From assembly GCF_041886205.1 (NCBI RefSeq), contig NZ_CP169029.1: DNA of 64,000 nt; one strand, written 5' to 3'. A program made the position numbers and the translations under genes. The notes under the pieces are model-generated. The model saw only the letters and a program-made list of their open reading frames with translations. It did not search any database and was not told the DNA's origin. Positions 1 to 43,273 of the stretch are shown here, piece by piece. The DNA is from Escherichia coli (GTDB taxonomy: Bacteria > Pseudomonadota > Gammaproteobacteria > Enterobacterales > Enterobacteriaceae). Within the stretch, counting starts at the first letter, position 1. Each line of letters starts with the position of its first letter.

Positions 1-3000
1 CCACCGTCAGGCCGCACGATGCCAGCCAGCGGCGGCTTTCCTCACTCACCCGGTCAGCCAGGATTTCACTTTCCAGCCGGTCGAGCATCTGCACCAGCAC
101 CGGCGGGAACACCACACTGCCACCGTCTTCGCCGCCGGACTGCTGAAGGGTATCCGCCAGGCTGCGGCGCTGCGTTTTCGCCTGCTCACCGGTGGCGGTT
201 TCAACCCTGATGAGTGGCGTGAAGCTCCCCGGCTGATAAATCGTCTGGATGCGGGTCCTGTCGTTCTGTATCGTGGTCAGCCGGTCGCCGTCCCAGCCGT
301 ACCAGGTCACTTGCGGTTTCCGTGACAGCGACATCCAGCCCGTCAGGTCCCGTTCACGCCGCCACACCCGTTTTGCCACCCTGCGGCCCAGCGGGTCGTA
401 AAGATAGCGACTTTCGACCAGCGGCTCTGCATATTGTGTCCGCGTGTAGTGCACCAGCCGGTGCTGACTGTCGTAATGGTACCGGTGGGTGCGCTCATCA
501 TCCGTGCGGATAACCCCTTCCGGGATGAGGTCGGTTTTCTCCGTCAGCCTGCCGTGACGGTCATACCGGTAAAGATAGTGCGCGTCACGGGCGATACGGT
601 TATCCGGCCACATGCTGAGGGTGCTGTCCGGGTGCAGCTCCGGGTCGGGCAGGCGGTTACCTGCCGGGTCTGTGGCATACGGGATGCGGATATCCAGATT
701 CGCTGCGGTGGTGTGAACGCTGGTCAGCCTGCCGGTGGTGCTGTAGCTGTAACTCCGGGTCTGGCGCGGGCTGCTGATGCGGATGAGTTCGCCGTTGTCG
801 TTCCAGGTGTAATCGCGGTCATACAGCAGGCTGTTCAGGTGCTGGCTCTGTAACTGCCCGGCAGGGGTGTAAGCGGTGGTGAGTTCATTAACGGCCGAAG
901 CTGCGCAGCGTTTCCCGGTGCAGGCGGTCGCGGGTGTACTCCACCAGCGGTGTGTCGCCGAGTTTCATGCCTGCCAGGTAACCGCTGCCGTAGGTCAGCC
1001 ATTCCACGGCGGGCAGGCTGTCCGGTATACAGCGGTTCGCCAGCCCCTGCGCGTTGTACGCATGTCTGGTCTCATGCTGCCAGAGCAGTGCTTCCGTCTG
1101 CGGGTGATGCACCGTCTGACGTTCACCGGTCAGGCGGCCTTTATCATCATACCCGTAGTGCACCGTCACCCGGTGCCCTTCGCTGATATGGCTGATGTCT
1201 GTCAGCCAGCCGCGTGTCGTCATACTGCCACCGCTCTGCCGGTTTCACCCTTCACGGTGCGGTGCGTGAGGCGGTCTGCTTCGTCATAGTGCCAGTGGGT
1301 GACCAGCCCCTCATCCTCACTGCTGGATGAGTTTGCCGGTCAGGTCGTGGTGATAACGCTGTGTGCGGCCGTCAAAGCCGGTTTCCTGTATCGAGCCGGT
1401 CAAGCACATCGTAACGGAAGGTGGTGTGGCTGCCGTTTTCACTGGTCAGGCGGATGACCCGTCCGGCAGCATCGTATTCCATACTGCGCGTCAAGCCCGC
1501 CCTGCGTGGTACAGACGGCCTTTCCCGCGCGCATCGTACTGTGTCCCGTTTCTGCTGCCGTCCGGGGCAATAACGGCGGTCAGGTCACCGGCGGCGTTGT
1601 ATTCATACCGCGTTTCATGGCCCTGCGTGTCTTTCACCGAGCAGTTAACTGTCCACGGCTGTCGTATGCGCGGTACTGGCTCATGCCCTTCCTCGCGGTG
1701 CACCGCCGTCATCTGACCGAAACGGTCATGGTCATAGCGGGTCGTGGTAACCGGAACAGTCAGTGAAGGTCAGCAACTGACCGTAACGGCTCCACGTCAT
1801 GGTTTTCCGGTACTGCCCGTCGCATCCGTCCGTTGTCGCAGGGAAGCTCACTGTGCGCGGATTATCATAACGGTAGCGGGTGATATCGCCGTCAGGGGCG
1901 AGTCTCCTGAATCAGACGTCCGTATTCATCATATTCCCGGCGCATTTCCAGCCCGTCCTGGCCCGGTAGCTGACGTTAACTGGTTGTGGTCGTTATAGTG
2001 AAACGCCGATGCCCTGCCATCCGGCGTGGTGATGCGCGTGATGAGCGCCGCGACACCACATCCGGGCTGTACTCTGTCTGTCCGGCCTGCGGCATCCGTC
2101 TGTGCCTTAAGCCTGCCCACCGCATCAAACTCGACTCTGCGTGACGCTGCCGTCCGCGTGTTCCTTTTTCACCACCCGCTTCAGCCCGGCTTCGCCCTGC
2201 GTGTGCAGCACTTCACGGCGGTTCAGGCTGTCGGTGATGGTGATGCGGTCCTTCTCATACTGATAGCGTGTAGCTCCAGAGCCTGCCGGGTTGAGCTGCT
2301 TCGTCACCCGCCCGGTCACTCGTCGTACCGGTAGCGGATTTCCGGCCGGCCCGCGTAACGGTGCGCCACCATCCGGCCCCGGTGTTGCATCATCGTAAGT
2401 GAAAGCTGCGCACCTGCGTTCCGCTGCGGTCATACACCGCCGCGCAGTTCGCCGCGCTGGCCGTCCAGCGTGTAGCGCGCCAGCGGCGCGGCAGGCTGAA
2501 TTCTCCGGGTATGCCGGGTCGTGCGTCAGCCACACCGCCGACAAGACGGATGCCGTTGTCCGGGCCGTATTCGGTGTACCCGGGCAGTGTGTCGAGGAAA
2601 AGCGGACGGTTCCGAGACCGGCGGGAAGATAAAGAGTGCGCGCTGCTCGGGCTTGTCCTGCCCGCTGCGCCTGCGTGGTCAGCACCAGCCGGAAGTGACG
2701 CCCGGCACCGTCCGTCACGCCGGTGATTTCGCCGCCGAATGTCACCCGCCGGCCTCGCGGTGGAACGTCAGCGTCCGCCCGAAGCGGTCCGCCAGCCCGG
2801 TCAGCACCCGGTACGGCGGCAGCGCGCGCAGGCAGCACCTCGTCCGCTTCCGGCACCCGCTCACGACCAGCCGAGCAGCCACCACGGCCCCTGCAGCGCT
2901 GTTCGTCGCCAGATAACGATGCGGACTTAAGCGGATATCTTCCGGCAGCGCCTGCCAGAGTGCGCCTAGCCGTGTGACCGTTCATCCAGCTCCGCCACGC

Positions 3001-3441
3001 CGCCGCGCACCAGCCACAGTGACTCGCTGCGGCTGTAGCCGTCCTCGCCGGGAAACAGCGTGCTCAAAGTGACAGGCTCCTGCCGCCGTTGTCAGCTGAG
3101 TATCAGTGCGTCATCGCGCAGCTGTAAGCGGATATCCGCAGGCGCTTTCAGCCGGGGCCGAGGCTCCCCACCGGCGCGGGCGTTCTGGTCCGGTAGCTGC
3201 TGTAGGTGCGGGAGAGGATGAACGGCAGCGGGCGCGGGCAGGGCGATGTCGGTCTCGCCGGGCAGGCACCTTCGCACCGAGCAGCGGATTGACCGGATGG
3301 CCGGACGTCACCCCGCCGGACACGCCGAACAGGCCACGCCGGTGGGCGCGCCGATGCGCACCCGGCTGCCGAACCCTCGGACAATGCCGCGGCCGCCTTG
3401 CGGGTCATGTCGCCCTGACGCGCCGCCGGTTTTCCGCTCAT
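1..3441 (-). pseudogene. Rhs-family YD-repeat protein, N-terminal and core part only; C-terminal toxin domain lies beyond the window start; reading frame broken many times
   Basis: Minus-strand ORF starting at 3441 begins MSGKPAARQGDMT (typical Rhs N-terminus); downstream fragments carry YD-repeat sequence (e.g. YGYDDKGRLTGE, RYEYNAAGDLTAV, ITTPDGR); fragments lie in different frames. Confidence 0.8.
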
Positions 3442-3479
3442 GAATCAATTCCTCTTTCTGCTTATTAATAATGGCTTGT

Positions 3480-5693
3480 CTGTTACTGCACCAGTACCGT
3501 TTTAACAGGTGCACCCGACCCTAGTACTGCTCGCATATCCGGCGTATCCGGGGGGTGAATCTTTCGGCATCAGGCGTCATCCGGTGCGGGATCGTCGAGG
3601 CTGCCACAGTTCCAGTTAATCAACTGGCGCAGTCACCGTTCACCTGCTCGACTCACCCTGCCAGAGTGAATGTGCGTGCCGTTGAGAAAGATTGCTGCCG
3701 TCCTTCGTCAGCACCAGCCTTGCCTCACCACAGCAGAGCTCCAGATGCCACAGGCGAGATAAACTCGCGGTCTGCCCGTGTGTCAGTCCTTCATTCGTCT
3801 TCTACCACCGGTGAAAGGCGGCGTGATTCCCCACATTGACGTCTGTAGCCCAGCCCGACCCTGAACCAGTGATCCGAAGCAGCCCTGCCTGTGAGGACTG
3901 CAACAGACGCCACCGAGGTGTGGTCGTAATGCCGCCTACCGTCGTCTGGTACGCCCACCGTCAGCGCACGAACGAGTCGCCACCGTTTCCACTCTGAACA
4001 GAACCCACGTTGATGATCTGGTTACCGCCCACCGTCTCCACACTGGTTCATCCCCCACTCGTCTGTATCTGATTAACGCCAATGTTCTGGATCTGGTTAT
4101 TGGTACCGGCGATCGCCTGGTTGTTGCCAATGGTCTCGGCATGGTTGTTTATCACATCCGTGGTGCGGTTATTCAGCACCTCAGGTGTTCATCTGTCTTC
4201 TGCGCGTGGATGTAGACCTGTTCTTTCCCTGTCGCATCGTCAAACTTCAGTTCATTAAACCCGCTGCCCGTATACGTTTTCGAGCGGATGGTCATCTGCG
4301 TCTTCGTTCCGGCAGGCTGCCGGGTGTGCGGTTTTCCTGGTGGTAGGTACGCCCCATAATGATCGGCTGGTCCGGATCGCCGTTGAGGAAGTCCACAATC
4401 ACCTCCTGACCCACACGCGGTATCGCCAGGTGGCCAAAACCGGTGCCTGCCCACGCCTGTGCCACACGGATCCAGCACGAACTGTCTTGGTCTGCCGGGT
4501 TATAACGGTCCCAGTTGAACTTCACCCGCACGCGACCATGTTCGTCGCAGAAGATTTCCTCGCCTGCCGGTCCTGTCACGACAGCGCTCTGCGGGCCGTC
4601 AACCAGCGGTTTCAGCAACGGCTGTGGTCGCCATGTTCTGTCTGCCGGGATCACCGCAAAATGGTTATCCAGCGCCGTCCCCGCTCCCTGCCGTCCTGGC
4701 ACCGCCTGTGGCTGTTCGCCGTGCAGTTCACTTGCCACCACCTGCCATTCCCGGTTCAGGTTCGCCTGCGGATGCCCCGTCAGCACAATTCGCCGTCCCG
4801 GCCATATCTCCGGCGAGCGGCTTGTTCCCCGCGCGGTTTCTGCGTTGTTGCGCCAGCCGTCCATCTGCCAGCGGGCAAAGTTCTGCCCGTGGGCACTCTC
4901 GAAACGTCCGGGGTAGTCATACACTTCATACTGCGTGCGCTGGTAGTCCTGGTGCTGGCCTTCCTGTTCAAAACGTCCGGCCCAGCCGGGTCGCTTAAAG
5001 GTGTAGTCTTTGTGTTCACCACGGAAGAAGGGCGGATTTGTGCGCTGTAGCGGAACTGGCTGATGCAGAGGGTGCTCACCTCGGTACGGGTGTTCGGATT
5101 CCAGGGATTTCAAAAGATTCGGGCAGATAACGCGACTGTGTCGCACAGCACCAGGCTCTGGTCGGTACTTTTGTAAGCATGCTCCTCATAAAAGAAGATG
5201 CCTTCCTCCGCCGCCATCCGGCACAGGAAATCGTAATCAGTCTCACCGTACTGGACACAAAACTCACGGGAAGGATGCGGCTCGCTGAACAGCGGACTCC
5301 ATTCGGTCACCCCGTTTTCCTGCAACATCGTGCCGAGGATGCTTTCGATGTCCTCGTTCTGGAAGATACGGAAGTTCTGGCGCAGACCGGCACGCCACAG
5401 CGGCGGGTGCACCTTCATGCTGTACAGCATCTGGTTTTTGTCGTTCTCCCCCAGTTCAAACCAGGTCACCACACCTTCACCCGGCGCTGTACGTCATCGC
5501 CCTGCCATACCGTCAGGTAGGCCATTTTGTCCAGCACCTGCGCAAATTCAAGGGAGAGAAACTGCTGGCTGACCAGAGAGAGATCGAGGGAAAAAAGCGA
5601 AGAGAGTGACTGGTTCAGATGAAAGGAAACCACCGCAAACGCATCCGGTGGCAGGCCGTCCACTTCCAGTGTGAAACGTAATCCGGTTGACAT
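3480..5693 (-). pseudogene. vgrG: VgrG spike protein (TssI), frameshifted; 3' end approximate
   Basis: Fragments at 5466-5693, 5110-5472, 4292-5146 and 4173-4478 (minus) read MSTGLRFTLEVDGLPPDAF..., ...GRTYHQENRTPGS..., MTIRSKTYTGSGFNELKFDDATGKEQVYIHAQK, matching VgrG gp27/gp5 modules; frames differ between fragments. Confidence 0.8.
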
Positions 5694-5850
5694 AGCAACC
5701 TCTGGGGTTAGGAAAAACAGACAGTTCGCTGTTAAAGCGGCTGTGACAGTACAGTGTTACGCTTGCGTTCAGGCACGCTACCGCCGAGTTTTCCGGCAGT
5801 CGCCATCTCCCTTGCTAGTACCCTAACTGACAACCTTTTTTTTATGGTGT

Positions 5851-5890
5851 AATACAAAAACAGCATCCGGCCTGATAGCCGGATGCTGTT
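5851..5890 (-). terminator. Rho-independent terminator immediately downstream of hcp, upstream of vgrG
   Basis: Inverted repeat cagcatccggc / gccggatgctg (5861-5888) with 6 nt loop, followed on the minus strand by a T-run (A-run 5851-5860 on plus). Confidence 0.55.
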
Positions 5891-5898
5891 GGCTTAAC

Positions 5899-6425
5899 TT
5901 ATGCTTCCAGCGGTGCGCGCCAGTCGTCGGCACCGGAGGTGCCAGATTTGACGTGTTCCCATTCAATTTTCGCGGTAGGCCAGTGAAACTTCGAGCAACT
6001 GGGTGAACTCGCGTTTCGCCGGGTCCTGGCAATGCGGCATATGCAGTTCTCATATCGCCAATCGTCGAATCAGTCAGGCGGGGAGCGAGATAGTGCTCCT
6101 GTTTGCCTTCCACAGAGGTACGCCACCAGTGAAGTTCAGCGGTTGGGCAGCATTTCGCCGGAGGCCAGTGCGTTGTACATCAGCGGAACCGCTTTGTTCA
6201 GCGCCACGGTAAAAATGAAAGGCTTGTGAGCGCACGCTGACCCGCAGGCTGACCGGACTGAGGATCGGTCCGCACAGATAACGTTATGCAGGAATTCCTG
6301 CACCAGCATCTCCGTCTTCGTGCCCCTGCACATAGATGTTGCCGACAGAATCAGCGGTAAATGCACCTGCAGTAATATTTCCCTGGGTCTGACCAGTGAT
6401 GGAAGATATAACACGGTGTTGGCAT
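5899..6425 (-). pseudogene. hcp: Hcp (TssD) tube protein, frameshifted
   Basis: Minus-strand translation from 6425 begins MPTPCY... and ends ...PLEA*; internal fragments ...EMLVQEFLHNV...HKPFIFTVALNKAVPLMYNALASGEML and VEGKQEHY...LTDSTIGDMRT match the Hcp family; length 527 nt is not a multiple of 3. Confidence 0.8.
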
Positions 6426-7134
6426 TTGTAAACTCCTTGTTAACGTGGTTAATTACTACTTACAATGACCTGCCGTTAATCCCAGACAGGCAGATGCAGC
6501 TCACTTCACGGAACCGCATCATTTTTCAGTATTTTTTACATACAAACCGAGCTAGAATTTACGGTTGTCGTAAAAACTATTTTTAAAATCATTACATAAC
6601 TCTCATTCAGCAAATAACTTAATAATATATATCTGGATAGCCATACCCAACTGTTCAAAGTCCGTATTGCCTCCATAAAATGGCCAACAGCGCGAACCAA
6701 CTGAAAATAAATATTGTATTTATCCTTTCTGAATTATCATTTTGATAATTTTTGAAGATATTCCTTAAAAATACCCACTTAATCAATCACAGTAAACACA
6801 TGTATAAATAAGCAATCATTAGATTAGCTCATGTTTAATGAAATTATTATATACTTCAATAAGTTACATAAAAAATCTATATTTAAATTATTGCCATAAT
6901 ACACCTGACGCGAATTGCACAGGTTCACACAATCTATTTAACGCTTGCAGAATACCCCTCTTTACCATCGATAAAAAGTCCTTTTCTTATTTATTTTGAA
7001 GCGTAAAATGCGGGGTGATGAAGGAGCTGGTGATTTTATTTTCACCGCCATTAGGGCGGCATTGCCGATATTTTTTTGCGGTACAAATATGCCGTGTTCA
7101 TGGCCTGTACGAGATAACATGACGGATTACTTTT
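6426..7134. promoter_or_regulatory. AT-rich divergent intergenic region between hcp-vgrG-rhs (minus) and tssB operon (plus); presumed promoters
   Basis: ~700 bp non-coding, visibly AT-rich compared with flanking genes; sits between divergently oriented T6SS genes; no specific promoter elements verified. Confidence 0.35.
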
Positions 7135-16750: not shown

Positions 16751-19521
16751 ATGATCCAGATTGATCTTCCCACGCTGGTAAAACGGCTGAACCTGTTCTC
16801 CCGCCAGGCGCTGGAGATGGCCGCCTCTGAATGTATGAGTCAGCAGGCAGCGGAAATTACCGTCAGCCATGTGCTCATTCAGATGCTCACCATGCCACGC
16901 AGTGACCTGCGGGTTATTACCCCGCCAGGGCGATATTGGCATGGAAGAAGTTGCGCCAGGCGCTGACGGTAGAGAACTACACGACCGCCCGTTCTGCGGA
17001 CAGCTACCCGGCGTTTTCCCCGATGCTGGTTGAGTGGCTGAAAGAGGGCTGGCTGCTGGCGTCGGCTGAGATGCAGCACAGCGAACTGCGCGGCGGCGTG
17101 TTGCTGCTGGCCCTGCTGCATTCGCCGCTGCGTTATATACCGCCTGCTGCCGCCCGGCTGACCGGCATGAACCGTGACCGTCTGCAAAGGACTTTGTGCA
17201 ATGGACACAGGAGTCGGCGGAATCAGTCGTGCCGGATGCAGACGGTAAAGGCGCAGGCACACATGACGGACGCCTCTGACACCCTGCTTGCCCGCTATGC
17301 CAAAAACATGACCGCAGACGCCCGTAACGGCAGGCTTGACCCGGTACTGTGCCGCGACCACGAAATCGACCTGATGATCGACATTCTCTGCCGCCGCCGT
17401 AAAAACAACCCGGTGGTGGTGGGCGAAGCGGGCGTGGGCAAAAGCGCACTGATTGAAGGGCTGGCGCTGCGCATCGTGGCAGGCCAGGTGCCGGACAAGC
17501 TGAAAAACACCGATATCATGACCCTGACCTGGGCGCATTGCAGGCCGGGGCGTCGGTGAAGGGTGAATTCGAAAAACGTTTCAAAGGGCTGATGGCGGAG
17601 GTCATTTCCTCCCCGGTGCCGGTCATTCTGTTTATCGACGAAGCACATACCCTGATTGGCGCGGGCAACCAGCAGGGCGGGCTGGATATCTCCAACCTGC
17701 TCAAACCGGCGCTGGCGCGCGGCGAGCTGAAAACCATCGCCGCCACCACCTGGAGCGGTACAAAAAATACTTCGAAAAAGATGCCGCCCTGTCGCGCCGC
17801 TTCCAGTTGGTGAAGGTCAGCGAACCCAACGCTGCCGAAGCCACCATTATTCTGCGCGGTCTGTCGGCGGTCTATGAACAGTCTCACGGCGTGCTGATTG
17901 ATGATGACGCCTTGCAGGCCGCTGCGACATTAAGCGAGCGTTATCTCTCCGGGCGTCAGTTACCGGACAAAGCGATTGATGTGCTGGATACCGCCTGCGC
18001 CCGTGTGGCCATCAACCTGTCGTCGCCGCCGAAGCAAATCTCGGCGCTGACCACTCTGAGCCACCAGCAGGAGGCGGGAAATTCGCCAGCTTGAGCGCGA
18101 GCTTCGCATCGGACTGCGTACCGACACATCACGGATGACCGAGGTGCTGGTGCAGTATGATGAAACGCTGACGGCGCTGGATGAACTGGAAGCGGCCTGG
18201 CACCAGCAGCAGACGCTGGTCCGGGAGATTATTGCGCTGCGCCAGCAGTTACTGGGCGTGGCAGAGGACGATGCGGCGCCGTTGCCGGACCGCAGATACC
18301 GTGGAGGATACGCAGCCAGAGTCAGAGTCAGAACAGGATAATACCGAGTGCCGTACCGGCTGGATGAGGCCGACAGAGAACAGCCGGAAGAGACCGCTGA
18401 AACAGTTTCCCCGGTACAACGTCTGGCGCCATCTCACTGCCGAACTGGACGCCCTGCATAACGACCGGTTGCTGGTTTCCCCGCACGTCGATAAAAAACA
18501 GATTGCGGCGGTGATTGCCGAATGGACCGGCGTGCCGCTTAACCGCCTGTCGCAGAATGAAATGTCGGTCATCACCGACCTGCCAAAATGGCTCGGCGAC
18601 ACCATCAAGGGCCAGGACCTGGCGATTGCCAGCCTGCACAAACACCTGCTGACCGCACGCGCCGACCTGCGCCGTCCGGGACGCCCGCTGGGCGCGTTCC
18701 TGCTGGCTGGCCCCAGCGGCGTGGGTAAAACTGAAACCGTCCTGCAACTGGCAGAGCTGCTCTACGGCGGTCGCCAGTACCTGACCACCATCAATATGTC
18801 CGAGTTCCAGGAGAAACATACCGTCTCGCGACTGATTGGTTCGCCTCCGGGCTACGTTGGCTACGGTGAAGGCGGCGTACTGACCGAAGCGATTCGCCAG
18901 AAACCCTACTCGGTAGTACTGCTCGATGAAGTGGAAAAAGCGCACCCGGATGTGCTCAACCTGTTCTACCAGGCGTTCGATAAGGGCGAAATGGCAGACG
19001 GTGAAGGCCGCCTGATTGACTGCAAAAATATCGTCTTCTTCCTGACGTCCAACCTCGGCTACCAGGTAATAGTCGAGCATGCCGATGACCCGGAAACCAT
19101 GCAGGAAGTACTGTATCCAGTTGTGCTGGCCGACTTCTTCAAACCTGCCCTGCTGGCGCGTATGGAAGTGGTGCCGTACCTGCCGCTGTCGAAAGAGACG
19201 CTCGCCACCATCATTGCCGGGAAACTGGCCCGCCTGGATAACGTGCTGCGCAGCCGCTTTGGCGCGGAGGTGATTATAGAACCGGAAGTGACGGACGAAA
19301 TCATGAGCCGCGTCACCCGCGCGGAAAACGGCGCGAGGATGCTGGAATCGGTCATCGACGGCAAGATGCCGCCGCTGCTCTCCCTGCTGCTGTTGCAGAA
19401 AATGGCGGCGAATACGGCGGTTGCCCGGATTCGGTTGTCGGCAGTGGACGGCGCATTTACGGCAGACGTGGAAGATGCTCAGAACGACGAGTCCGTCACA
19501 AAGGATGAAACGGTTTTATGA
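16751..19521 (+). pseudogene. clpV: ClpV (TssH) AAA+ ATPase, several frameshifts
   Basis: Two AAA+ Walker A motifs (GEAGVGKSA in fragment 16936-17559; GPSGVGKTE in fragment 18181-19521); ~920-codon span split over at least five ORF pieces in different frames. Confidence 0.85.
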
Positions 19522-20265: not shown

Positions 20266-21679
20266 ATGGCAATGGACTTACGCGATCCGAATGTCTGGAT
20301 ATCGCACCTGCTGGAAAACCTGCCGGAAGAGAAACTGGCATCGGCGCTGAAAGATGACAACCCGAACTGGGAGTATATCGACGGCGAAATCGTCAAGCTG
20401 GGATCGCTGGCCCACAGTCAACTGGATATCCCGGAACTCCAGCGCCGGGGGCTGGTCATTCTGGCTTCGGAGAGTAAGGATTTTCGTCTGCTGGCGCATC
20501 TGCTGAGAACCCTGCAACACGCCGGTGATCCTCACTCCCGCATTGCGCCTGCTGGCGCTGTATGTGGAGCATTACTGGGCGGTGGCTGCGCCGCAGAATA
20601 TGGCGCATAAAAAACGCTTTGCCAGCCAGGTCATTAAACGCTTTGAAACAGGTATTGAAGTTTTTTCACAGAACGCCGCCACAGCGCAGCGCGATGCGCT
20701 GTCAGGGGAACTGGCAAAACTGGCGCAATGCTGGCAGTCACATAACGCCCCGGAACTGGCACAGGCTACTGATGATCTTTTTGCCCCGTACCAGCGTGCG
20801 TTTAATCGTGCGGCACCGGTTCCTGTCCCCACTCCGGCGGCCTCCGGTAGTTCACCACAGACCACCGCCACGTCTGAAAGCGGCGTGACGCAACCCAGTG
20901 CTCCGGCTCCCCAAATCGTCATCGACAGTCACGACGACAAAGCCTGGCGCGACACGCTGTTAAAAGTGGCGGCCATTTTATGTGAACGCCAGCCGGATTC
21001 ACCGCAGGGCTACCGTCTGCGCCGCCATGCGCTTTGGCAGAACATCACCAGTACGCCCCAGGCGGAAAGCGATGGCCGTACTCCACTGGCTGCGGTCTCC
21101 GCCGATATGGTGGCAGATTACCATGCTCAGCTCGGTAGTGCCGATATGGCGCTGTGGCAGCAGGTGGAGAAAAGCGTACTGCTGGCTCCTTACTGGCTGG
21201 ATGGTCACTGCCTTTCTGCACAGACGGCGCTGCGTCTGGGTTACAAACAGGTGGCAGACGCCATCCGCGATGAGGTCATCCGCTTCCTTGAGCGTCTGCC
21301 CCAGCTTACCGGGCTGCTGTTTAATGACCACACACCGTTTATCAGTGAGCAGACGAAACAATGGCTGGCAGCTTCGCCCGACGCCAAAGTTGCACCGGTT
21401 GCGCAAATCGGTGAGGAATCGAAGGCAGCCAGAGCCTGTTTTGCTGAGCAGGGTCTGGAGGCGGCGCTGCGATATCTGGACATGCTACCCGAAGGCGATC
21501 CCCGCGATCAGTTTCACCGCCAGTACCTTGCCGCACAGTTGACGGAAGAGGCGGGGCTGGTACAGCTTGCGCAGCAGCAGTACCGGATGTTGTTCAGGAT
21601 GGGATTGCAGATGATGGTGGCAGACTGGGAGCCGTCCCTGCTTGAGCAGCTAGAACAAAAATTCACGGCAGAACAATAA
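20266..21679 (+). pseudogene. tssA: TssA (ImpA N-terminal domain) protein, one apparent frameshift near 20.53 kb
   Basis: N-terminal fragment MAMDLRDPNVWISHLLENLPEEKLASAL...SESKDFRLLAHLL (ImpA_N-like) in one frame, remainder (384 aa ORF 20525-21679) in another. Confidence 0.7.
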
Positions 21680-21697: not shown

Positions 21698-24600
21698 GTG
21701 TTCAGATTACCAACACCCCGACTACTCAGCGGACTCAAATCAGCCCTGCGACCGGCGATGCCCCGGTTTAAAGTCTCTGCTTTCTGGCTGCTGATACTGG
21801 CGTGGATTTTTCTGCTGGTGTGGATCTGGTGGAAAGGCCCGACGTGGACGCTGTATGAAGAACAGTGGCTCTAAACCACTGGCGAACCGCTGGCTGGCAA
21901 CGGCGGCGTGGGGGATTATTGCCCTGATGTGGCTTACCGTCCGGGTGATGAAGCGCCTGCAACAGCTTGAAAAACAGCAAAAACAACAGCGCGAGGAAGC
22001 CGTTCGATCCGCTCAGTGTGGAACTGAACGCCCAGCAGCGTTACCTCGACCGCTGGCTGCTGCGCCTGCAACGCCATCTCGACAACCGCCGTTTCCTGTG
22101 GCAATTGCCGTGGTATATGGTCATCGGCCCGGCGGGCAGTGGCAAAACGACACTGCTGCGCGAGGGGTTTCCGTCAGACATTATTTATGCCCCGGAGGGC
22201 TCGCGCGGCGCAGAACAACGCCTGTACCTTACGCCCCATGTCGGTAAACAGGCGGTGATCTTTGATATCGACGGCACACTCTGCGCTCCCGCTGATGCGG
22301 ATATCCTGCATCGCCGTCTGTGGGAACATACCCTCGGCTGGCTGAAGGAAAAGCGCGCGCGCCAGCCCGCTGAACGGGATTATTCTGACACTCGATTTAC
22401 CCGATCTGCTGACCGCAGACAAGCGCCGCCGTGAGTATCTGCTACAGACGCTGCGCAGCCGCTTGCAGGATATACGCCAGCATCTTCACTGCCAGCTACC
22501 GGTTTACGTGGTACTGACCCGGCTTGATTTATTGCAGGGTTTTGCCGCCCTGTTCCAGTCCCTGAACAGACAGGATCGTGATGCGATTCTGGGTGTCACG
22601 TTCACCCGCCGTGCCCATGAAAATGATGACTGGCGAACAGAGTTGAATGCTTTCTGGCAGACATGGGTGGATCGAATGAATCTGGCGTTGCCGGATCTGA
22701 TGGTCGCTCAGACTCACACCCGCGCGTCTTTATTCAGTTTTTCCCGCCAGATGCAGGGAAGCCGTGAACCCCTGGTGTCACTGCTTGAAGGTCTGCTTGA
22801 CGGCGAAAATATGAACGTGATGCTGCGTGGTGTCTATCTCACCTCGTCACTGCAACGCGGCCAGATGGATGACATCTTTACCCAGTCCGCCGCCCGCCAG
22901 TACCGGCTGGGCAATAACCCACTGGCGTCCTGGCCCCTGGTGGACACCGCGCCTTATTTCACCCGCAGCCTGTTCCCGCAGGCATTACTCGCAGAGCCTA
23001 ATCTGGCAACGGAGAGCCGTGACTGGCTGATGCGTTCCCGTCGCCGCCTGACGGTTTTCTCTGCCACAGGCGGCGTGGCGGCACTGCTGCTCATCACCGG
23101 CTGGCATCACTATCACAACGGTAACTATCAGTCCGGCATCACCGTGCTTAAGCAGGCCAAAGCCTTTATGGACGTGCCGCCTCCGCAGGGGAAAGACGAC
23201 TACGGCAACCTGCAACTGCCGCTGCTGAACCCGGTACGCGATGCCACACTGGCCTATGGCGACTGGGGCGACCGCAGCCGTCTGGCCGATATGGGACTGT
23301 ACCAGGGACGACGTATCGGGCCTTATGTGGAACAGACCTATCTGCAACTACTAGAGCAGCGTTACCTGCCCTCGCTGTTTAACGGGCTGGTCAAAGCGAT
23401 GAACGCCGCGCCGCCGGAGAGTGAGGAAAAACTCGCCGTGCTGCGCGTGATGCGAATGCTGGAGGACAAAAGCGGACGCAATAATGAGGTGGTGAAGCAG
23501 TATATGGCAAAACGCTGGAGCGAAAAAGTTCCACGGCCAGCGTGATATCCAGGCACAACTGATGTCCCATCTTGACTACGCGCTGGCTCATACTGACTGG
23601 CATGCAGAGCGTCAGGCGGGCGACGGTGACGCCATCAGCCGCTGGATGCCATATGACAAGCCCGTGGTATCAGCACAGAAAGAACTGAGCAAACTGCCTG
23701 TCTACCAGCGGGTTTACCAGAGCCTGAAAACGCGGGCGCTGGGCGTTCTTACCTGCTGACCTCAATCTGCGTGACCAGGTAGGGCCAACCTTTGACCAGG
23801 TCTTTACATCTGCCGATGACAACAAACTGGTTGTTCCACAGTTTCTTACCCGTTACGGCCTGCAAAGCTATTTTGTAAAACAGCGCGATGAACTGGTTGA
23901 ACTGACGGCAATGGATTCCTGGGTACTCAACCTCACCCGCAGTGTGAAATACAGTGACGCCGACCGCGCGGAAATCCAGCGCCAGTTGACCGAGCAGTAT
24001 ATCAGCGACTACACCGCTACCTGGCGAGCCGGGATGTGACAATCTGAATATCCGCAATTTTGAGTCCATTGGACAACTGACCGGGGCGCTGGAGCAGGTT
24101 ATCAGCGGCGACCAGCCTTTGCAGCGGGCGCTGACTGTGTTGCGTGACAACACACAGCCAGGCGTCTTTTCTGAAAAACTTTCTGCCAAAGAACGGGATG
24201 AGGCTCTGGCAGAACCGGACTACCAGTTGCTCACCCGCCTCGGGCATGAATTTGCCCCGGAAAACAGTACTCTGGCAGTACAGAAAGACAAAGAAAGCAC
24301 GATGCAGGCCGTGTATCAGCAACTCACCGAGTTGCACCGCTATCTGCTGGCAATTCAGAACGCGCCTGTACCAGGGAAATCGGCGCTGAAAGCCGTGCAG
24401 TTGCGGCTTGATCAGAACAGCAGCGATCCGATATTCGCCACCCGCCAGATGGCAAAGACACTGCCTGCTCCGCTCAACCGCTGGGTTGGCAGACTGGCTG
24501 ACCAGGCCTGGCATGTGGTGATGGTGGAGGCCGTTCACTATATGGAAGTGGACTGGCGCGACAGCGTGGTGAAACCGTTTAACGAGCAACTGGCAAATAA

Positions 24601-25228
24601 CTATCCGTTTAATCCGCGTTCTGCACAGGATGCCTCACTGGATGCCTTCGAACGCTTCTTTAAACCGGATGGCATACTGGATACCTTCTACCAGCAGAAC
24701 CTGAAGCTGTTTATCGACAATGACCTGAGTCTGGAGGATGGCGATAACAGCGTCATTATTCGCGAAGATATTATTGCGCAACTGAAAACCGCGCAGAAAA
24801 TCCGTGACATCTTCTTCAGTAAACAGAACGGTCTGGGAACATCCTTTGCCGTGGAAACGGTATCGCTCTCCGGCAACAAACGCCGCAGTGTACTGAACCT
24901 TGACGGCCAGTTAGTCGATTACAGCCAGGGGCGCAACTATACCGCCCATCTGGTCTGGCCTAACAATATGCGCGAAGGCAACGAAAGCAAACTGACGCTC
25001 ATCGGCACCAGCGGCAACGCGCCGCGCAGTATCAGCTTCAGCGGGCCGTGGGCGCAGTTCCGCCTTTTCGGGGCCGGACAACTGACCGGAGTTCAGGATG
25101 GCAACGTTACCGTGCGCTTTAGCGTGGACGCTGGCGCGATGACCTACCGTGTGCATACCGACACTGAGGATAACCCATTCAGCGGTGGGTTATTCAGCCA
25201 GTTTGGTCTGTCAGACACACTGTACTGA
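21698..25228 (+). pseudogene. tssM: TssM (IcmF-like) membrane-complex protein, several frameshifts
   Basis: N-terminal transmembrane segments, Walker A motif GPAGSGKTTLL (fragment 21967-22434), ~1170-codon span ending with 369 aa fragment 24119-25228; at least five frame changes. Confidence 0.8.
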
Positions 25229-25238
25229 GGAGGCAGGG

Positions 25239-26593
25239 ATGGATAGTAACGGACTGACACAAACTATCGTTACCGGCAGTGACCCGCGCGGGGCTGCCGG
25301 AATTCAGTGCCATCCGCGAGGAAATAAACAAAGCCAGCCACCCGTCACAGCCTGAGCTGAACTGGAAACTGGTGGAGTCGCTGGCACTGGCGATTTTTAA
25401 AGCCAACGGTGTGGATTTACACACCGCCACCTACTAGACGCTTGCCCGGACACGGACACAGGGACTGGCGGGATTCTGCGAAGGTGCGGAACTGCTGGCG
25501 GCAATGGTAAGCCACGACTGGGATAAGTTCTGGCCGCAGGGCGGCCCGGCGCGTACTGAAACGCCGGACTGGTTTAACTCCCGAACCGGCAATATTCTGC
25601 GTCAGCAAATCTCCTTTGCGGAATCCGACCTACCACTGATCTACCGCACAGAGCGGGCATTGCAGCTTATCTGCGATAAGCTCCAGCAGGTGGAACTGAA
25701 GCGCGTTCCGCGCGTGGAGAATCTGCTCTATATTTATGCAGAACACGCGTAAACGGCTTGAACCCCAGACTGAAGAGTAACACTGAGAACGCCGCACAGA
25801 CCACGGTCAGAACGCTGATTTATGCCCCGGAAACACAGGCATCTTCCACACCAGAAGCGGTAGTGCCTCCCCTGCCCGGCCTGCCTGAGATGAAAGTGGA
25901 AGTGCGCAGTCTGACAGAGAATCCCCCACAGGCCAGTGTGATAAAGCAAGGCAGTACGGTAAGAGGGTTTATCGCAGGGATCGCCTGTTCAGTGGCTGTC
26001 GCCTCAGCATTGTGGTGGTGGCAGGTCTATCCGGTGCAGCAGCAACTGTTACAGGTTAACGACACCGCTCAGGGCGCAGCAACGGTGTGGATGGCCTCAC
26101 CTGAACTCGAAAACTATGAGCGCAGGCTGCAACAACTTCTTGATACCTCCCGGTACAGCCGCTGGAAACCGGGATGCAGATGATGCGTGTTGCCGACAGT
26201 CGCTGGCCGGAAAGCCTGCAACAGCAACAGGCCTCGACACAATGGAATGAGGCACTCAAAACCCGCGCACAGAGTAGCCCGCAGTTGCGTGGCTGGTTGC
26301 AGACCCGCCAGGACTTACATGCTTTTGCAGATCTAGTGATGCAGCGCGAGAAAGAGGGACTAACCCTTTCCTATATCAAAAATGTCATCTGGCAGGCGGA
26401 GCGGGGACTGGGGCAGGAAACACCCGTTGAGTCTCTGTTGACGCAGTACCAGGATGCCCGTGCGCAGAAGCAGAATACAGATGCGCTGGAAAAACAAATT
26501 AATGAGCGACTCGAAGGCGTGTTAAGCCGCTGGCTGCTGCTGAAGAATAACGTCATGCCAGAGGCGGCAACCGGTACCACGGCCGAAAAATAA
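25239..26593 (+). pseudogene. Second ImpA_N-domain T6SS accessory protein (VasL/TagA-like), frameshifted
   Basis: Alternate-frame translation near 25.3 kb gives LPEFSAIREEINKASHPSQPELNWKLVESLALAIFKANGVDLHTATY (ImpA_N signature); followed by a hydrophobic segment (FIAGIACSVAVASALWWW) and a C-terminal region; fragments in three frames. Confidence 0.5.
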
Positions 26594-26616: not shown

Positions 26617-27099
26617 ATGGCAAATATAAGTTATTTATCTTTGAGTGGAGAGACACAAGGGCTGATTTCAGCAGGTTGCTCAACGCTTGATTCTGTCGGA
26701 AACAAAGCGCAGCCAGAACATAAAGATCGAGATCATGGTTTATGCGTTAATGCATTCCATCTCAAGAAGTCAAAATGTCAATCATCATGAATTAATTATC
26801 ACCAAACCGGTTGATAAATCCTCACCATTGCTGGCAAAAGCACTTAGTGACAATGAAAAAATGGCAATATGTGAATTTATACTCTACCGAACCAGTAAAG
26901 CGGGTATTTACCAGCCTTATTATAAAATAAATCTGTCAAAAGCCCGAATATCAAGTATTGATTTTGTCACACCGCATGCTGTCCTGGAAAAGAACTGGAA
27001 CCACAGGAGAGAATTGCCTTTATTTATGAAGATATTTCCTGGGAGCATACGTTAGCCGGTACGAATGCAATGAGTAAATGGCAGGATCGTGTACAGTAA
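26617..27099 (+). pseudogene. hcp: Second Hcp (TssD) copy, two apparent frameshifts
   Basis: Strong RBS (aaggag) then MANISYLSLSGETQGLISAGCSTLDSVGNKAQPEH; continues in other frames as ...SISRSQNVNHHELIITKPVDKSSPLLAKALSDNEKMAICEFILYRTSKAG... and ...RIAFIYEDISWEHTLAGTNAMSKWQDRVQ*, all matching Hcp. Confidence 0.8.
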
Positions 27100-27142: not shown

Positions 27143-28039
27143 ATGGCTGGTTTAAGGAATAACAACAACACACAGAATGCACAGTGGGCTGATTATGTGG
27201 GTGACATTCTTCGGGGGGCTCAGCCGATAAACCAGCTAGTACCTCAGCACCCTTATCTTAACGACGTCCCACTCATTGATGAGTTAAGGCATCAGAACAC
27301 TCATCATGTTATTCTCTTGACACTTGATGTTGCAAAAAAAATACTCAGCCCAATAACATCATTTGATTACATTCATTTTATCACTACACATCCTTCAGGT
27401 ATAAAAGATACACTCGCCTGGTTAGTTAACGCGGGTAAATTAATGACTGAGTTTGATGACAATGGGAAAATTATATTTAACCTTAATGCCTTAAAGTATA
27501 CAAAAGCAAGTTACTTTGAAATACTTGGAGAGAAATATATAAAAATCACAACATCCAGCCCCTGGCTTTTAGAAAAGCTCGGTAAATATATTTTCTCTTC
27601 ACGAGCGCCTCAAGTTCTGGAACTCGCTATTGGCTGGCGAGGAGCTTTATCTGAATCAATAAAAGGAGTTAAGTTCTGTATCTGGTTTTCAGTAGCCTGG
27701 AGAACCATAGAATTTATTATGAGTTCAGAGCGAGATCTGGTTAATTTTCTTGGCGATTTTTCAATGGATGTGGCCAAAGCAGTTATAGCCGGTGGTGTTG
27801 CAACCGCTATTGGAAGCCTGGCTTCTTTTGCCTGTGTTAGCTTTGGCTTTCCAGTAATTCTTGTCGGAGGAGCAATTTTACTGACAGGGATAGTGTGTAC
27901 AGTTGTTTTAAATGAAATCGATGCTCAATGCCATTTATCAGAAAAATTAAAATATGCAATTAGAGATGGACTAAAACGGCAACAGGAACTTGATAAATGG
28001 AAAAGGGAAAACATGACTCCATTTATGTATGTTCTTTAA
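27143..28039 (+). CDS. Hypothetical protein with C-terminal glycine-zipper transmembrane hairpin; candidate Hcp-linked membrane-targeting effector
   Basis: Intact ORF (frame opens at 27128; ATG 27143 has a better RBS ggagag); AT-rich; C-terminal hydrophobic helices AVIAGGVATAIGSLASFACVSF and FPVILVGGAILLTGIVCTVVL; immediately downstream of hcp2. Confidence 0.6.
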   Translation: MAGLRNNNNTQNAQWADYVGDILRGAQPINQLVPQHPYLNDVPLIDELRHQNTHHVILLTLDVAKKILSPITSFDYIHFITTHPSGIKDTLAWLVNAGKLMTEFDDNGKIIFNLNALKYTKASYFEILGEKYIKITTSSPWLLEKLGKYIFSSRAPQVLELAIGWRGALSESIKGVKFCIWFSVAWRTIEFIMSSERDLVNFLGDFSMDVAKAVIAGGVATAIGSLASFACVSFGFPVILVGGAILLTGIVCTVVLNEIDAQCHLSEKLKYAIRDGLKRQQELDKWKRENMTPFMYVL

Positions 28040-28067
28040 CACTCCACCCGTGATATGAGGATTAACC

Positions 28068-29816: not shown

Positions 29817-29893
29817 TGGCGGAACGGACGGGACTCGAACCCGCGACCCCCTGCGTGACAGGCAGGTATTCTAACCGACTGAACTACCGCTCC
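29817..29893 (-). tRNA. aspV: tRNA-Asp (GUC)
   Basis: 77 nt; reverse complement reads GGAGCGGTAGTTCAGTCGGTTAGAATACCTGCCTGTCACGCAGGGGGTCGCGGGTTCGAGTCCCGTCCGTTCCGCCA. Confidence 0.97.
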
Positions 29894-38040: not shown

Positions 38041-38117
38041 TGGCGGAACGGACGGGACTCGAACCCGCGACCCCCTGCGTGACAGGCAGGTATTCTAACC
38101 GACTGAACTACCGCTCC
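38041..38117 (-). tRNA. aspU: tRNA-Asp (GUC)
   Basis: 77 nt, identical in sequence to the aspV copy at 29817-29893; located just distal to 5S rRNA. Confidence 0.97.
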
Positions 38118-38169
38118 ACCGAATTCTTTTACAACCACCGGTTTTATGACCGGCTTAATGCTTAATTTG

Positions 38170-38289
38170 ATGCCTGGCAGTTCCCTACTCTCGCATGGGG
38201 AGACCCCACACTACCATCGGCGCTACGGCGTTTCACTTCTGAGTTCGGCATGGGGTCAGGTGGGACCACCGCGCTACGGCCGCCAGGCA
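38170..38289 (-). rRNA. rrfH: 5S ribosomal RNA
   Basis: Reverse complement matches E. coli 5S rRNA (TGCCTGGCGGCCGTAGCGCGGTGGTCCCACCTGACCCCATGCCGAACTCAG...GGAACTGCCAGGCAT). Confidence 0.97.
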
Positions 38290-38371
38290 AATTCTTTTTT
38301 ATCAGACCGCTTCTGCGTTCTGATTTAATCTGTATCAGGCTGAAAATCTTCTCTCATCCGCCAAAACACCT

Positions 38372-41285
<2,914 letters not shown>

Positions 41286-41468
41286 TCACAACCCGAAGAT
41301 GTTTCTTTCGATTCATCATCGTGTTGCGAAAATTTGAGAGACTCACGAACAACTTTCGTTGTTCAGTGTTTCAATTTTCAGCTTGATCCAGATTTTTAAA
41401 GAGCAAAACTTCGCAGTGAACCTTTGCAGGTACACTCTGAAGTATTTTTTATTTAATCACTACAGAGA

Positions 41469-41544
41469 TGGTGGAGCTATGCGGGATCGAACCGCAGACC
41501 TCCTGCGTGCAAAGCAGGCGCTCTCCCAGCTGAGCTATAGCCCC
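41469..41544 (-). tRNA. alaV: tRNA-Ala (UGC), 16S-23S spacer
   Basis: Reverse complement GGGGCTATAGCTCAGCTGGGAGAGCGCCTGCTTTGCACGCAGGAGGTCTGCGGTTCGATCCCGCATAGCTCCACCA. Confidence 0.97.
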
Positions 41545-41586
41545 ATAACATGTAGTTAAAACCTCTTCAAATTTGCGGTGCAAATT

Positions 41587-41663
<77 letters not shown>

Positions 41664-41731
41664 GTAGAGGTTTTACTGCTCATTTTCATCAGACAATCTG
41701 TGTGAGCACTGCAAAGTACGCTTCTTTAAGG

Positions 41732-43273
<1,542 letters not shown>

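What the first reader, a model, noticed from the sequence alone, without database searches (positions are those of the whole stretch)
25239..26593. Second ImpA_N-domain gene in addition to tssA
Besides tssA (20266-21679), a second gene upstream of hcp2 encodes an ImpA_N-like N-terminus (LPEFSAIREEINK...NWKLVESLALAIFKANGVDLHTATY), a hydrophobic segment and a C-terminal region, resembling VasL/TagA-type accessory proteins. It is frameshifted here.
Basis: partly seen in the sequence, partly recalled or inferred. Interest (0 to 1): 0.3.

Follow-up and report, generated by a model that had tools for sequence, protein, structure and literature searches.

The report
Broken tagA/vasL gene of E. coli T6SS-2
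This is the already known accessory gene tagA (vasL) of a common E. coli type VI secretion cluster, whose protein anchors and stops the growing firing sheath; here it is a broken copy inside a cluster that is broken almost everywhere, so it is ordinary.

Summary
Window 25239-26593 (+) is the ortholog of a 450-aa E. coli protein that RefSeq names [quoted passage not shown]. [quoted passage not shown] It sits directly after tssM and before hcp, in the same order as V. cholerae vasI-vasJ-vasK-vasL. That makes it the TagA/VasL class of TssA-like accessory proteins.

The copy here is dead. It carries three +1 insertions, one -1 deletion and one TAT>TAG nonsense change.

One lesion, +A at 25769, is a real rare allele. 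It is shared with strain 99E2750 and two read-set assemblies. The other four occur in none of about 2,400-2,700 E. coli genomes.

These lesions are part of damage across the whole island:
- 133 inserted and 28 deleted bases, mostly outside homopolymers.
- Substitutions biased AT>GC.
- No indels at all in the adjacent core genes.

This spectrum is unlike natural decay, so I suspect a technical artefact in the island sequence. Interest is low.

The parts
25239..26593 (+). tagA/vasL pseudogene (ImpA_N - TM - VasL), full extent from ATG to TAA
   Evidence: Collinear with the intact 1353-bp ortholog L002:3140-4492. RefSeq names that ortholog 'ImpA and VasL domain-containing protein'.
25227..25233 (+). 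Shine-Dalgarno GAGGAGG, 5 nt upstream of the ATG and overlapping the tssM stop (TGA 25226-25228)
   Evidence: Read directly from the sequence.
25272..25578 (+). Region coding for the ImpA_N domain (aa 12-113 of the intact protein), interrupted by +G at 25290 and the TAG at 25435-25437
   Evidence: Pfam PF06812: E 4.5e-19 on the ortholog, 64.9 bits on the repaired window protein. AF2 helical N-domain aa 8-173 has TssA Nt structure 6HS5 as best PDB match.
25290..25290 (+). Lesion 1: inserted G (GGG>GGGG), a +1 frameshift after codon 17
   Evidence: No identical 61-mer in 2674 E. coli genomes carrying the site.
25435..25437 (+). Lesion 2: TAT>TAG nonsense (Y66*), T>G at 25437
   Evidence: No identical 55-mer in 2581 genomes.
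25732..25732 (+). Lesion 3: inserted A inside CTATTTTATG, not a homopolymer slip; +1 frameshift at codon 164
   Evidence: No identical 61-mer in 2676 genomes.
25769..25769 (+). Lesion 4: inserted A (CAG[A]CTG), +1 frameshift at codon 176; a real rare allele
   Evidence: Shared with strain 99E2750 only, 1 of 2391 genomes, where PGAP flags the gene 'frameshifted'. The resulting 179-aa product is also called in two Logan read-set assemblies.
25956..26027 (+). Region coding for the hydrophobic / transmembrane helix (aa 239-262, TVRGFIAGIACSVAVASALWWWQV)
   Evidence: Kyte-Doolittle maximum 1.69. AF2 helix 240-273. G246 is nearly invariant in 50 homologs.
26148..26149 (+). Lesion 5: one C lost between these bases (CCCC>CCC), a -1 frameshift at codon 303
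   Evidence: No identical 61-mer in 2383 genomes.
26115..26542 (+). Region coding for the VasL domain (aa 292-434)
   Evidence: Pfam PF12486: E 4.8e-23, covering model positions 1-146 of 147. The raw fragment 26174-26590 alone scores 73 bits.
21788..25228 (+). tssM (upstream neighbour), disrupted by 6 single-base insertions
   Evidence: Mapped onto L001 tssM.
20266..21679 (+). tssA, the core ImpA_N + VasJ paralog, with +C at 20535
26617..27099 (+). hcp (downstream neighbour), with +G at 26729 and -A after 26987

Best explanation
The interval is the tagA (vasL) gene of the E. coli T6SS-2 cluster inserted at the aspV tRNA-Asp locus.

The intact protein is 450 aa. It has a cytoplasmic, all-helical ImpA_N domain of the kind found at the N-terminus of the TssA cap protein. 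This is followed by a disordered linker of about 60 residues, one membrane-spanning helix, and a helical C-terminal VasL domain.

The function is inferred by homology to V. cholerae TagA (VCA0121/VasL) and EAEC TagA. The protein sits in the inner membrane. When the growing sheath-tube, capped by TssA, reaches the far side of the cell, TagA captures the distal end. It stops further polymerisation and holds the sheath extended until it fires. It is an efficiency factor rather than a core component.

In this window the gene cannot make that protein. Translation from the ATG goes out of frame after codon 17, and four more lesions follow. At least one lesion, +A at 25769, is a genuine and rare natural allele. 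The other four belong to a pattern of single-base insertions across the whole island. That pattern is more likely a defect of the sequence record than natural decay.

Shown here: identity, domain architecture, synteny and the lesions. Inferred: topology and the mechanism.
For: Domains: ImpA_N and VasL on the ortholog and on the repaired window protein.

Structure: the AF2 model has mean pLDDT 80.5. The N-domain (aa 8-173) is above 90, aa 179-238 are disordered, and there is a helix at 240-273 followed by a helical C-domain. The best PDB fold match is 6HS5, the TssA N-terminal domain. A profile search of PDB hits only TssA entries 6RJU and 6HS5, and only over ImpA_N.

Synteny: tssK-tssL-tssH-vasI-tssA-tssM-[ImpA_N+VasL]-hcp in E. 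coli and in Salmonella bongori. Vibrio has the same order, vasI-tssA(vasJ)-tssM(vasK)-vasL (PMC5371669).

Conservation: intact proteins of about 445-450 aa occur across Enterobacteriaceae, with clusters of 1949 and 3152 member sequences. There are 737 cluster representatives at E<=1e-3.

Literature: the TagA class is defined as ImpA_N plus a transmembrane/hydrophobic region plus the VasL domain PF12486. V. cholerae tagA deletion gives over-long, bent, less stable sheaths. EAEC tagA mutants keep about 12% of activity (PMC6745524; PMC7545191; PMC6730261).

Lesions.
Against: - No experiment exists on the T6SS-2 TagA of E. coli itself. The published E. coli TagA is reported in a different E. coli cluster, T6SS1. 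It shares only 19.3% identity with V. cholerae TagA (PMC6745524), so function across the class is extrapolated.
- I could not obtain the VCA0121 sequence for a direct pairwise comparison. The link rests on shared Pfam families and synteny.
- Topology (N-in, C-out) is inferred only from K/R residues before the helix and none after it.
- The C-terminal VasL domain has no significant structural match, so its role is unknown.
Confidence: 0.9

Rival explanations
1. Most lesions in this gene, and in the island generally, are errors in the sequence record rather than mutations in the organism. Possible causes are unpolished long-read or low-coverage consensus, or some other corruption. Under this reading the organism carries, at most, the single 99E2750-type +A frameshift.
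For: Compared with 99E2750, the island (7011-29486) has 133 inserted and 28 deleted bases. 100 of these are isolated single-base insertions, and 68 inserted bases are unlike either neighbour, so they are not homopolymer slips.

The 109 substitutions are spread evenly over codon positions. In tssB-tssF the ratio is 43 nonsynonymous to 19 synonymous, against 22 to 87 in the core genes. They are biased AT>GC, 81 against 14. WW dinucleotides are lost.

There is no IS element and no large deletion. The core genes dnaQ-dkgB have 0 indels. From 29811 to 58005 the window is 99.86% identical to strain 6EVA.

Two natural strains, W and 99E2750, differ by about 375 substitutions but only 11 gap openings over the same stretch, and that divergence does not correlate with the noise.

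Four of the five lesions in this gene are found in no other genome. Lesion-bearing ORFs and k-mers are absent from public gene-call, metagenome and species-representative collections.
Against: - The noise stops at the island boundary and is very uneven within the island: about 20-60 events per kb at 7-11.6 kb, and 0-5 per kb over most of 12-28 kb. A simple coverage model does not predict this.
- No known platform is documented, to my knowledge, to give insertions plus AT>GC substitutions together.
- One lesion is certainly real.
- I have no reads and do not know the source record.
Confidence: 0.7
2. All lesions are real. The T6SS-2 island in this strain is an old, neutrally decaying relic, and tagA is one of many genuine pseudogenes.
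For: - Damage is confined to an accessory island, while essential neighbours are perfect. That is what relaxed selection predicts.
- Substitutions are random with respect to codon position.
- The +A allele shows tagA was already broken in a related natural island.
- The haplotype switch between island and core lies within the tRNA-Asp gene, a natural island boundary.
Against: - The insertion:deletion ratio of about 5:1, the non-homopolymer insertions and the AT>GC bias are the opposite of the known E. coli mutational biases (GC>AT, deletions, homopolymer indels; established knowledge).
- The substitution:indel ratio is about 1:1, against roughly 30:1 between natural strains over the same stretch.
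- There are no IS elements or large deletions.
- No other genome shares any intermediate stage.
Confidence: 0.15
3. The gene is a second core TssA (cap protein), not an accessory TagA.
For: It shares the ImpA_N domain and gives weak matches to the NCBIfam TssA models TIGR03362 and TIGR03363.
Against: - TIGR03362 scores 81.9 bits against a cut-off of 230.1, and the match covers only the N-terminal part.
- There is no VasJ (PF16989) C-terminal domain. It has a transmembrane helix and a VasL domain instead.
- Pairwise similarity to the cluster's TssA is 27% over 82 aa, E 0.39.
- A bona fide tssA is already present at 20266-21679.
Confidence: 0.02
4. The split is functional. In the 99E2750-type allele, a 179-aa soluble ImpA_N protein and a 243-aa TM-VasL protein are made separately and act together or in a new way.
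For: Gene callers predict both halves as separate ORFs in two read-set assemblies. Every other annotated T6SS-2 gene from tssB to hcp is unflagged in 99E2750.
Against: - The allele is in 1 of 2391 genomes, so it is not conserved.
- The window copy has four further lesions that destroy both halves.
- No start codon or Shine-Dalgarno site was examined for the second half.
Confidence: 0.03

Closest known systems
V. cholerae TagA (VCA0121, originally VasL); Class B / TsmA TssA-like protein
   Same: Same architecture, ImpA_N plus a hydrophobic/TM region plus the VasL domain PF12486, whose family is named after this protein. Same position directly after tssM (vasK), in the block vasI-tssA(vasJ)-tssM(vasK)-vasL.
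   Different: Different genus. The E. coli cluster has no vasH annotated between tssH and vasI, and hcp rather than vgrG follows the gene. The window copy is a pseudogene.
EAEC TagA of the T6SS1 (Sci-1) cluster (Santin et al. 2018, as cited in PMC6745524 and PMC6730261)
   Same: Same class of ImpA_N accessory protein. It binds TssA, localises to the distal end of the sheath, and stops and holds it. It is non-essential: the mutant keeps about 12% of activity.
   Different: It is reported for a different E. coli T6SS family, T6SS1. The class is very divergent: V. cholerae TagA and EAEC TagA share only 19.3% identity.
RefSeq 'type VI secretion system ImpA and VasL domain-containing protein' / 'VasL domain-containing protein' (WP_126492280, WP_001087745)
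   Same: Direct orthologs, 98-99% identical after repair (8 aa differences), at the same locus and with the same neighbours.
   Different: Those are intact 450-aa ORFs. The window copy has 4 frameshifts and 1 nonsense codon.
TssA (VasJ-type, Class A) of the same cluster, window 20266-21679
   Same: Shares the N-terminal ImpA_N fold.
   Different: TssA has a C-terminal VasJ oligomerisation domain and no TM helix. Pairwise similarity is at noise level. The two are ancient paralogs, not a recent duplication.

Membership tests
TagA / VasL class (Class B, TsmA) of TssA-like T6SS accessory proteins | N-terminal ImpA_N domain (PF06812) | tested here: met
   E 4.5e-19 on the intact ortholog. 64.9 bits against a cut-off of 26.9 on the repaired window protein. 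Fold match to TssA Nt structure 6HS5.
TagA / VasL class (Class B, TsmA) of TssA-like T6SS accessory proteins | Hydrophobic / transmembrane region after the ImpA_N domain | tested here: met
   Kyte-Doolittle 19-residue maximum 1.69 at aa 239-257, the only stretch above 1.6. AF2 helix 240-273.
TagA / VasL class (Class B, TsmA) of TssA-like T6SS accessory proteins | C-terminal VasL domain (PF12486) | tested here: met
   E 4.8e-23, covering model positions 1-146 of 147. 81.8 bits on the repaired window protein.
TagA / VasL class (Class B, TsmA) of TssA-like T6SS accessory proteins | Encoded inside a T6SS cluster that also has a separate core tssA, adjacent to tssM | tested here: met
   The order vasI-tssA-tssM-[this gene]-hcp is seen in the window, in E. 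coli references and in S. bongori. Vibrio has the same order.
TagA / VasL class (Class B, TsmA) of TssA-like T6SS accessory proteins | An open reading frame able to produce the full protein | tested here: not met
   Four frameshifts and one nonsense codon in the window copy. By descent it is a member of the gene family, but as written it is a pseudogene.
TagA / VasL class (Class B, TsmA) of TssA-like T6SS accessory proteins | Membrane localisation, binding to TssA, and arrest and stabilisation of the extended sheath | not testable with these tools
   Known only from experiments on V. cholerae and EAEC TagA (PMC6745524, PMC7545191).
Core TssA (Class A, VasJ-type cap protein) | C-terminal VasJ domain (PF16989), and a score above the NCBIfam TIGR03362 cut-off | tested here: not met
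   No PF16989 hit. TIGR03362 scores 81.9 bits against a cut-off of 230.1. The cluster's true TssA scores 517 bits and has VasJ at E 1.9e-70.

The most novel reading that the evidence does not exclude
The damage confined to the island might be biological rather than technical. It consists of about 130 single-base, mostly non-homopolymer insertions plus AT>GC substitutions. It stops exactly at the tRNA-Asp boundary and spares every core gene. If real, it would be the footprint of a mutational process targeted at, or confined to, a horizontally acquired island, with a spectrum unlike any known E. coli mutator.
Probability: 0.03. Interest if true: 0.7.

Novelty: already known. Interest (0 to 1): 0.1.

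Why it matters
For biology, it matters little. TagA/VasL-type proteins are described, named in Pfam, annotated by RefSeq and studied experimentally. Disrupted T6SS genes are annotated in several other E. coli genomes examined here.

There are two modest points of value.

1. The +A frameshift shared with strain 99E2750 marks a natural tagA-null allele in a T6SS-2 cluster whose other annotated genes are unflagged. This is consistent with TagA being dispensable, and that strain could serve as a natural test of what TagA does in T6SS-2.

2. Any 'pseudogene' or 'frameshift' finding between window positions 1 and about 29,500 should be treated with suspicion until reads are checked.

Tried and rejected
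1. Finding the source of the window, or any other copy of the lesions. None of these searches found anything:
- An exact 50-mer spanning two tagA lesions in GTDB species representatives.
- A 36-mer with several tssF lesions, and a 41-mer with the +A allele, in JGI metagenomes.
- Exact look-up of lesion-bearing ORFs, tssC' of 214 aa and tssK' of 476 aa.
- Look-up of the 298-aa ORF downstream of hcp. It returned only genes cut off at contig ends, so it was uninformative.

2. Explaining the noise by local AT content. The correlation is weak (Spearman -0.32), and the AT-rich stretch 26.6-28.1 kb is nearly clean. Rejected.

3. Explaining the noise by natural strain diversity, as from a mixed consensus. 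There is no correlation with W-versus-99E2750 divergence (rho 0.00). Rejected.

4. Finding a close relative with the same island. The complete genomes examined whose core matches the window at 99.9-100% (6EVA, LHM10-1) carry a different T6SS at aspV.

5. Direct comparison with V. cholerae VCA0121 and EAEC TagA. I could not retrieve their sequences. The top 150 remote homologs that I named were all Enterobacterales.

6. A structural clue for the VasL domain. Foldseek gave only insignificant TPR-like or helical-repeat matches.

7. The left end of the window (1-7000; Rhs, VgrG, Hcp on the minus strand) is only 85.5% identical to the best E. coli match. Inspection suggests genuine Rhs-family divergence mixed with indels. 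I did not resolve it.

Full report
**What is at the coordinates.** Window 25239-26593 (+) starts with an ATG five bases after a GAGGAGG Shine-Dalgarno that overlaps the tssM stop codon, and it ends at a TAA. No single ORF spans it.

Megablast places the interval in 2950 of 5426 complete E. coli genomes. There it lies between tssM and an hcp gene and is annotated 'VasL domain-containing protein' or 'type VI secretion system ImpA and VasL domain-containing protein'. In strains NCTC9082 and W it is an intact 1353-bp, 450-aa gene.

**The lesions.** Aligned to the NCTC9082 ortholog, the window copy has five lesions:
- +G at 25290
- T>G at 25437 (TAT>TAG, Y66*)
- +A at 25732
- +A at 25769
- loss of one C after 26148

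The three +1 insertions bring the frame back to that of the ATG between 25770 and 26148, and the deletion then shifts it again. I removed the insertions, restored the C and read through the stop. This gives a 450-aa protein with only 8 residue differences from the ortholog.

**What the protein is.**
- Pfam on the intact ortholog gives ImpA_N (aa 12-113, E 4.5e-19) and VasL PF12486 (aa 292-434, E 4.8e-23, full model length).
- The repaired window protein gives 64.9 and 81.8 bits against cut-offs of 26.9 and 27.3.
- The only strongly hydrophobic stretch is aa 239-262 (Kyte-Doolittle maximum 1.69).
- An AlphaFold model built on 50 homologs (mean pLDDT 80.5) shows a confident helical N-domain at aa 8-173. 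After it come a disordered linker (179-238), a long helix (240-273) and a helical C-domain (276-435).
- The best PDB fold match is the TssA N-terminal domain 6HS5. A profile search of PDB sequences hits only TssA entries, 6RJU and 6HS5, and only over ImpA_N. The VasL domain has no informative structural match.
- It is not a second core TssA. There is no VasJ domain, and NCBIfam TssA scores 81.9 bits against a cut-off of 230.1. The cluster's real TssA scores 517 bits. The two paralogs are barely alignable pairwise (27% over 82 aa, E 0.39).

**Context and conservation.** The window carries the T6SS-2-type cluster at the aspV tRNA-Asp / dnaQ locus. The gene order is tssB, tssC, tssE, tssF, tssG, tagH, tssJ, tssK, tssL, tssH, vasI, tssA, tssM, this gene, hcp.

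The block tssK-tssL-tssH-vasI-tssA-tssM-[ImpA_N+VasL]-hcp recurs in Salmonella bongori. The order vasI-tssA(vasJ)-tssM(vasK)-vasL is that of the V. cholerae and V. fluvialis clusters (PMC5371669).

Intact homologs of about 445-450 aa with both domains are abundant across Escherichia, Salmonella, Citrobacter, Enterobacter and others, including clusters of 1949 and 3152 sequences. An exhaustive HMMER search finds 737 cluster representatives. The remote ones I named are annotated VasL proteins of Pantoea, Rouxiella, Moellerella and other genera.

**How it most likely works (inferred from homologs).** The literature defines 'TagA' as a type VI accessory gene with an ImpA domain: ImpA_N, then a transmembrane/hydrophobic region, then a VasL domain (PMC6745524).
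[quoted passage not shown] Its deletion gives fewer, longer, bent sheaths that contract soon after assembly or detach.
- TagA, TssA and TssM jointly control initiation and termination (PMC7545191).
- The EAEC tagA mutant keeps about 12% of activity, so the protein is accessory (PMC6730261).

I therefore read the intact E. coli T6SS-2 protein as a membrane anchor that captures the TssA-capped distal end, stops polymerisation and holds the sheath. A cytoplasmic N-terminus and a periplasmic VasL domain are only a positive-inside inference.

**Status of the copy here.** The gene is dead as written, but it is not special in this. Against strain 99E2750, the best match, the island part of the window (7011-29486) has 133 inserted and 28 deleted bases. 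Every T6SS gene except tagH, tssJ and vasI is hit. The adjacent core genes dnaQ through dkgB have none.

The spectrum is abnormal in several ways:
- 100 events are isolated single-base insertions, and about half of the inserted bases match neither neighbour.
- The 109 substitutions are spread evenly over codon positions, about 70% nonsynonymous, while the core genes are about 80% synonymous.
- The substitutions are biased AT>GC, 81 against 14.
- WW dinucleotides are lost.
- There are no IS elements or large deletions.

For comparison, two natural strains (W and 99E2750) differ over the same stretch by about 375 substitutions and only 11 gap openings, and their divergence does not track the noise.

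From 29811 rightwards the window is 99.86% identical to strain 6EVA, and nearly all differences lie in the rrn operon. 6EVA and its relative LHM10-1 carry a different T6SS at aspV. The switch of haplotype lies within the tRNA-Asp gene.

**Which lesions are real.**
- The +A at 25769 is shared with exactly one of 2391 genomes, 99E2750, where PGAP marks the gene 'frameshifted'. The resulting 179-aa ImpA_N product and a 243-aa VasL product are called in two independent read-set assemblies. This allele is real, and the window's island is of the 99E2750 type.
- The other four lesions are in none of 2383-2676 genomes carrying the site.
- No lesion-bearing sequence was found in any other public collection I could query.

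Natural E. coli mutation is biased the other way, towards GC>AT, deletions and homopolymer indels (established knowledge). I therefore put about 0.7 on a technical defect of the island sequence, about 0.15 on genuine decay, and a few per cent on something biological and new. The source record and reads are needed to decide.

**Verdict.** The gene is a known kind (TagA/VasL) with direct, annotated orthologs in thousands of genomes, and the copy here is a pseudogene. Novelty: already known. Interest: low (0.1). The only unusual thing is the error-like pattern across the island, which is a caution for every 'frameshift' finding in the left half of this window.

Noticed in passing
window 7011-29486 (whole T6SS-2 island): Compared with the closest genome, the island has 133 inserted and 28 deleted bases, mostly single and outside homopolymers. 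Its 109 substitutions are random over codon positions and biased AT>GC (81 against 14). The adjacent core genes have zero indels. The damage is densest at 7.0-11.6 kb and 28.1-29.2 kb. The spectrum is opposite to natural E. coli mutation, so I suspect an artefact.
   Followed up: partly
window 29811-58005 versus 1-29810: The core part is 99.86-100% identical to strains 6EVA, wlxctx60, VE-T9 and XJ5.2. The two of this lineage that I examined (6EVA and LHM10-1) carry a different T6SS at aspV, with long-form TssL, TagJ, TagK and a short 349-aa ImpA protein. The window's island is of the 99E2750 type. The haplotype switch lies inside tRNA-Asp (29817-29893). This combination was not seen in any of 5426 complete genomes.
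   Followed up: partly
window 1-7000, minus strand: An Rhs core, VgrG and an Hcp gene are all fragmented. The best identity to any complete E. coli genome is only 85.5%, with 219 gap openings against 99E2750. Part of this looks like genuine Rhs-family divergence and part like the same indel noise.
   Followed up: partly
L001 (E. coli 99E2750) 18140-19493; L010/L011 3001-4354: A natural tagA allele split by +A into a 179-aa ImpA_N ORF and a 243-aa TM-VasL ORF. The other annotated T6SS-2 genes from tssB to hcp in L001 carry no pseudogene flag. This is a natural tagA-null or split variant.
   Followed up: partly
window 20535; 26729 and 26987: The 'reference' genes named in the finding are themselves disrupted. 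tssA has +C at 20535. hcp has +G at 26729 and -A after 26987. Only tagH, tssJ and vasI are free of indels in the cluster.
   Followed up: yes
window 27143-28058: A conserved 304-aa hypothetical protein lies directly downstream of hcp (WP_000908052 in references), with hydrophobic stretches in its C-terminal half. No family search was run on it; related loci list no Pfam hit for the intact 304-aa product. It could be an effector or immunity gene. In S. bongori the gene at the same position has a Glucosaminidase domain. Several public contigs end inside this gene.
   Followed up: no
window 38041-43273: An rrn operon (16S, tRNA-Ile, tRNA-Ala, 23S, 5S) followed by a second tRNA-Asp, on the minus strand. 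This is ordinary. The few differences from 6EVA cluster here, as expected for multi-copy rRNA.
   Followed up: yes
L007 (E. coli O157:H7 Balcarce_14.2) 1640-3049: O157:H7 strains carry a 469-aa variant of the same gene. Its 3' end diverges and overlaps hcp, and tssM is frameshifted in that genome.
   Followed up: no
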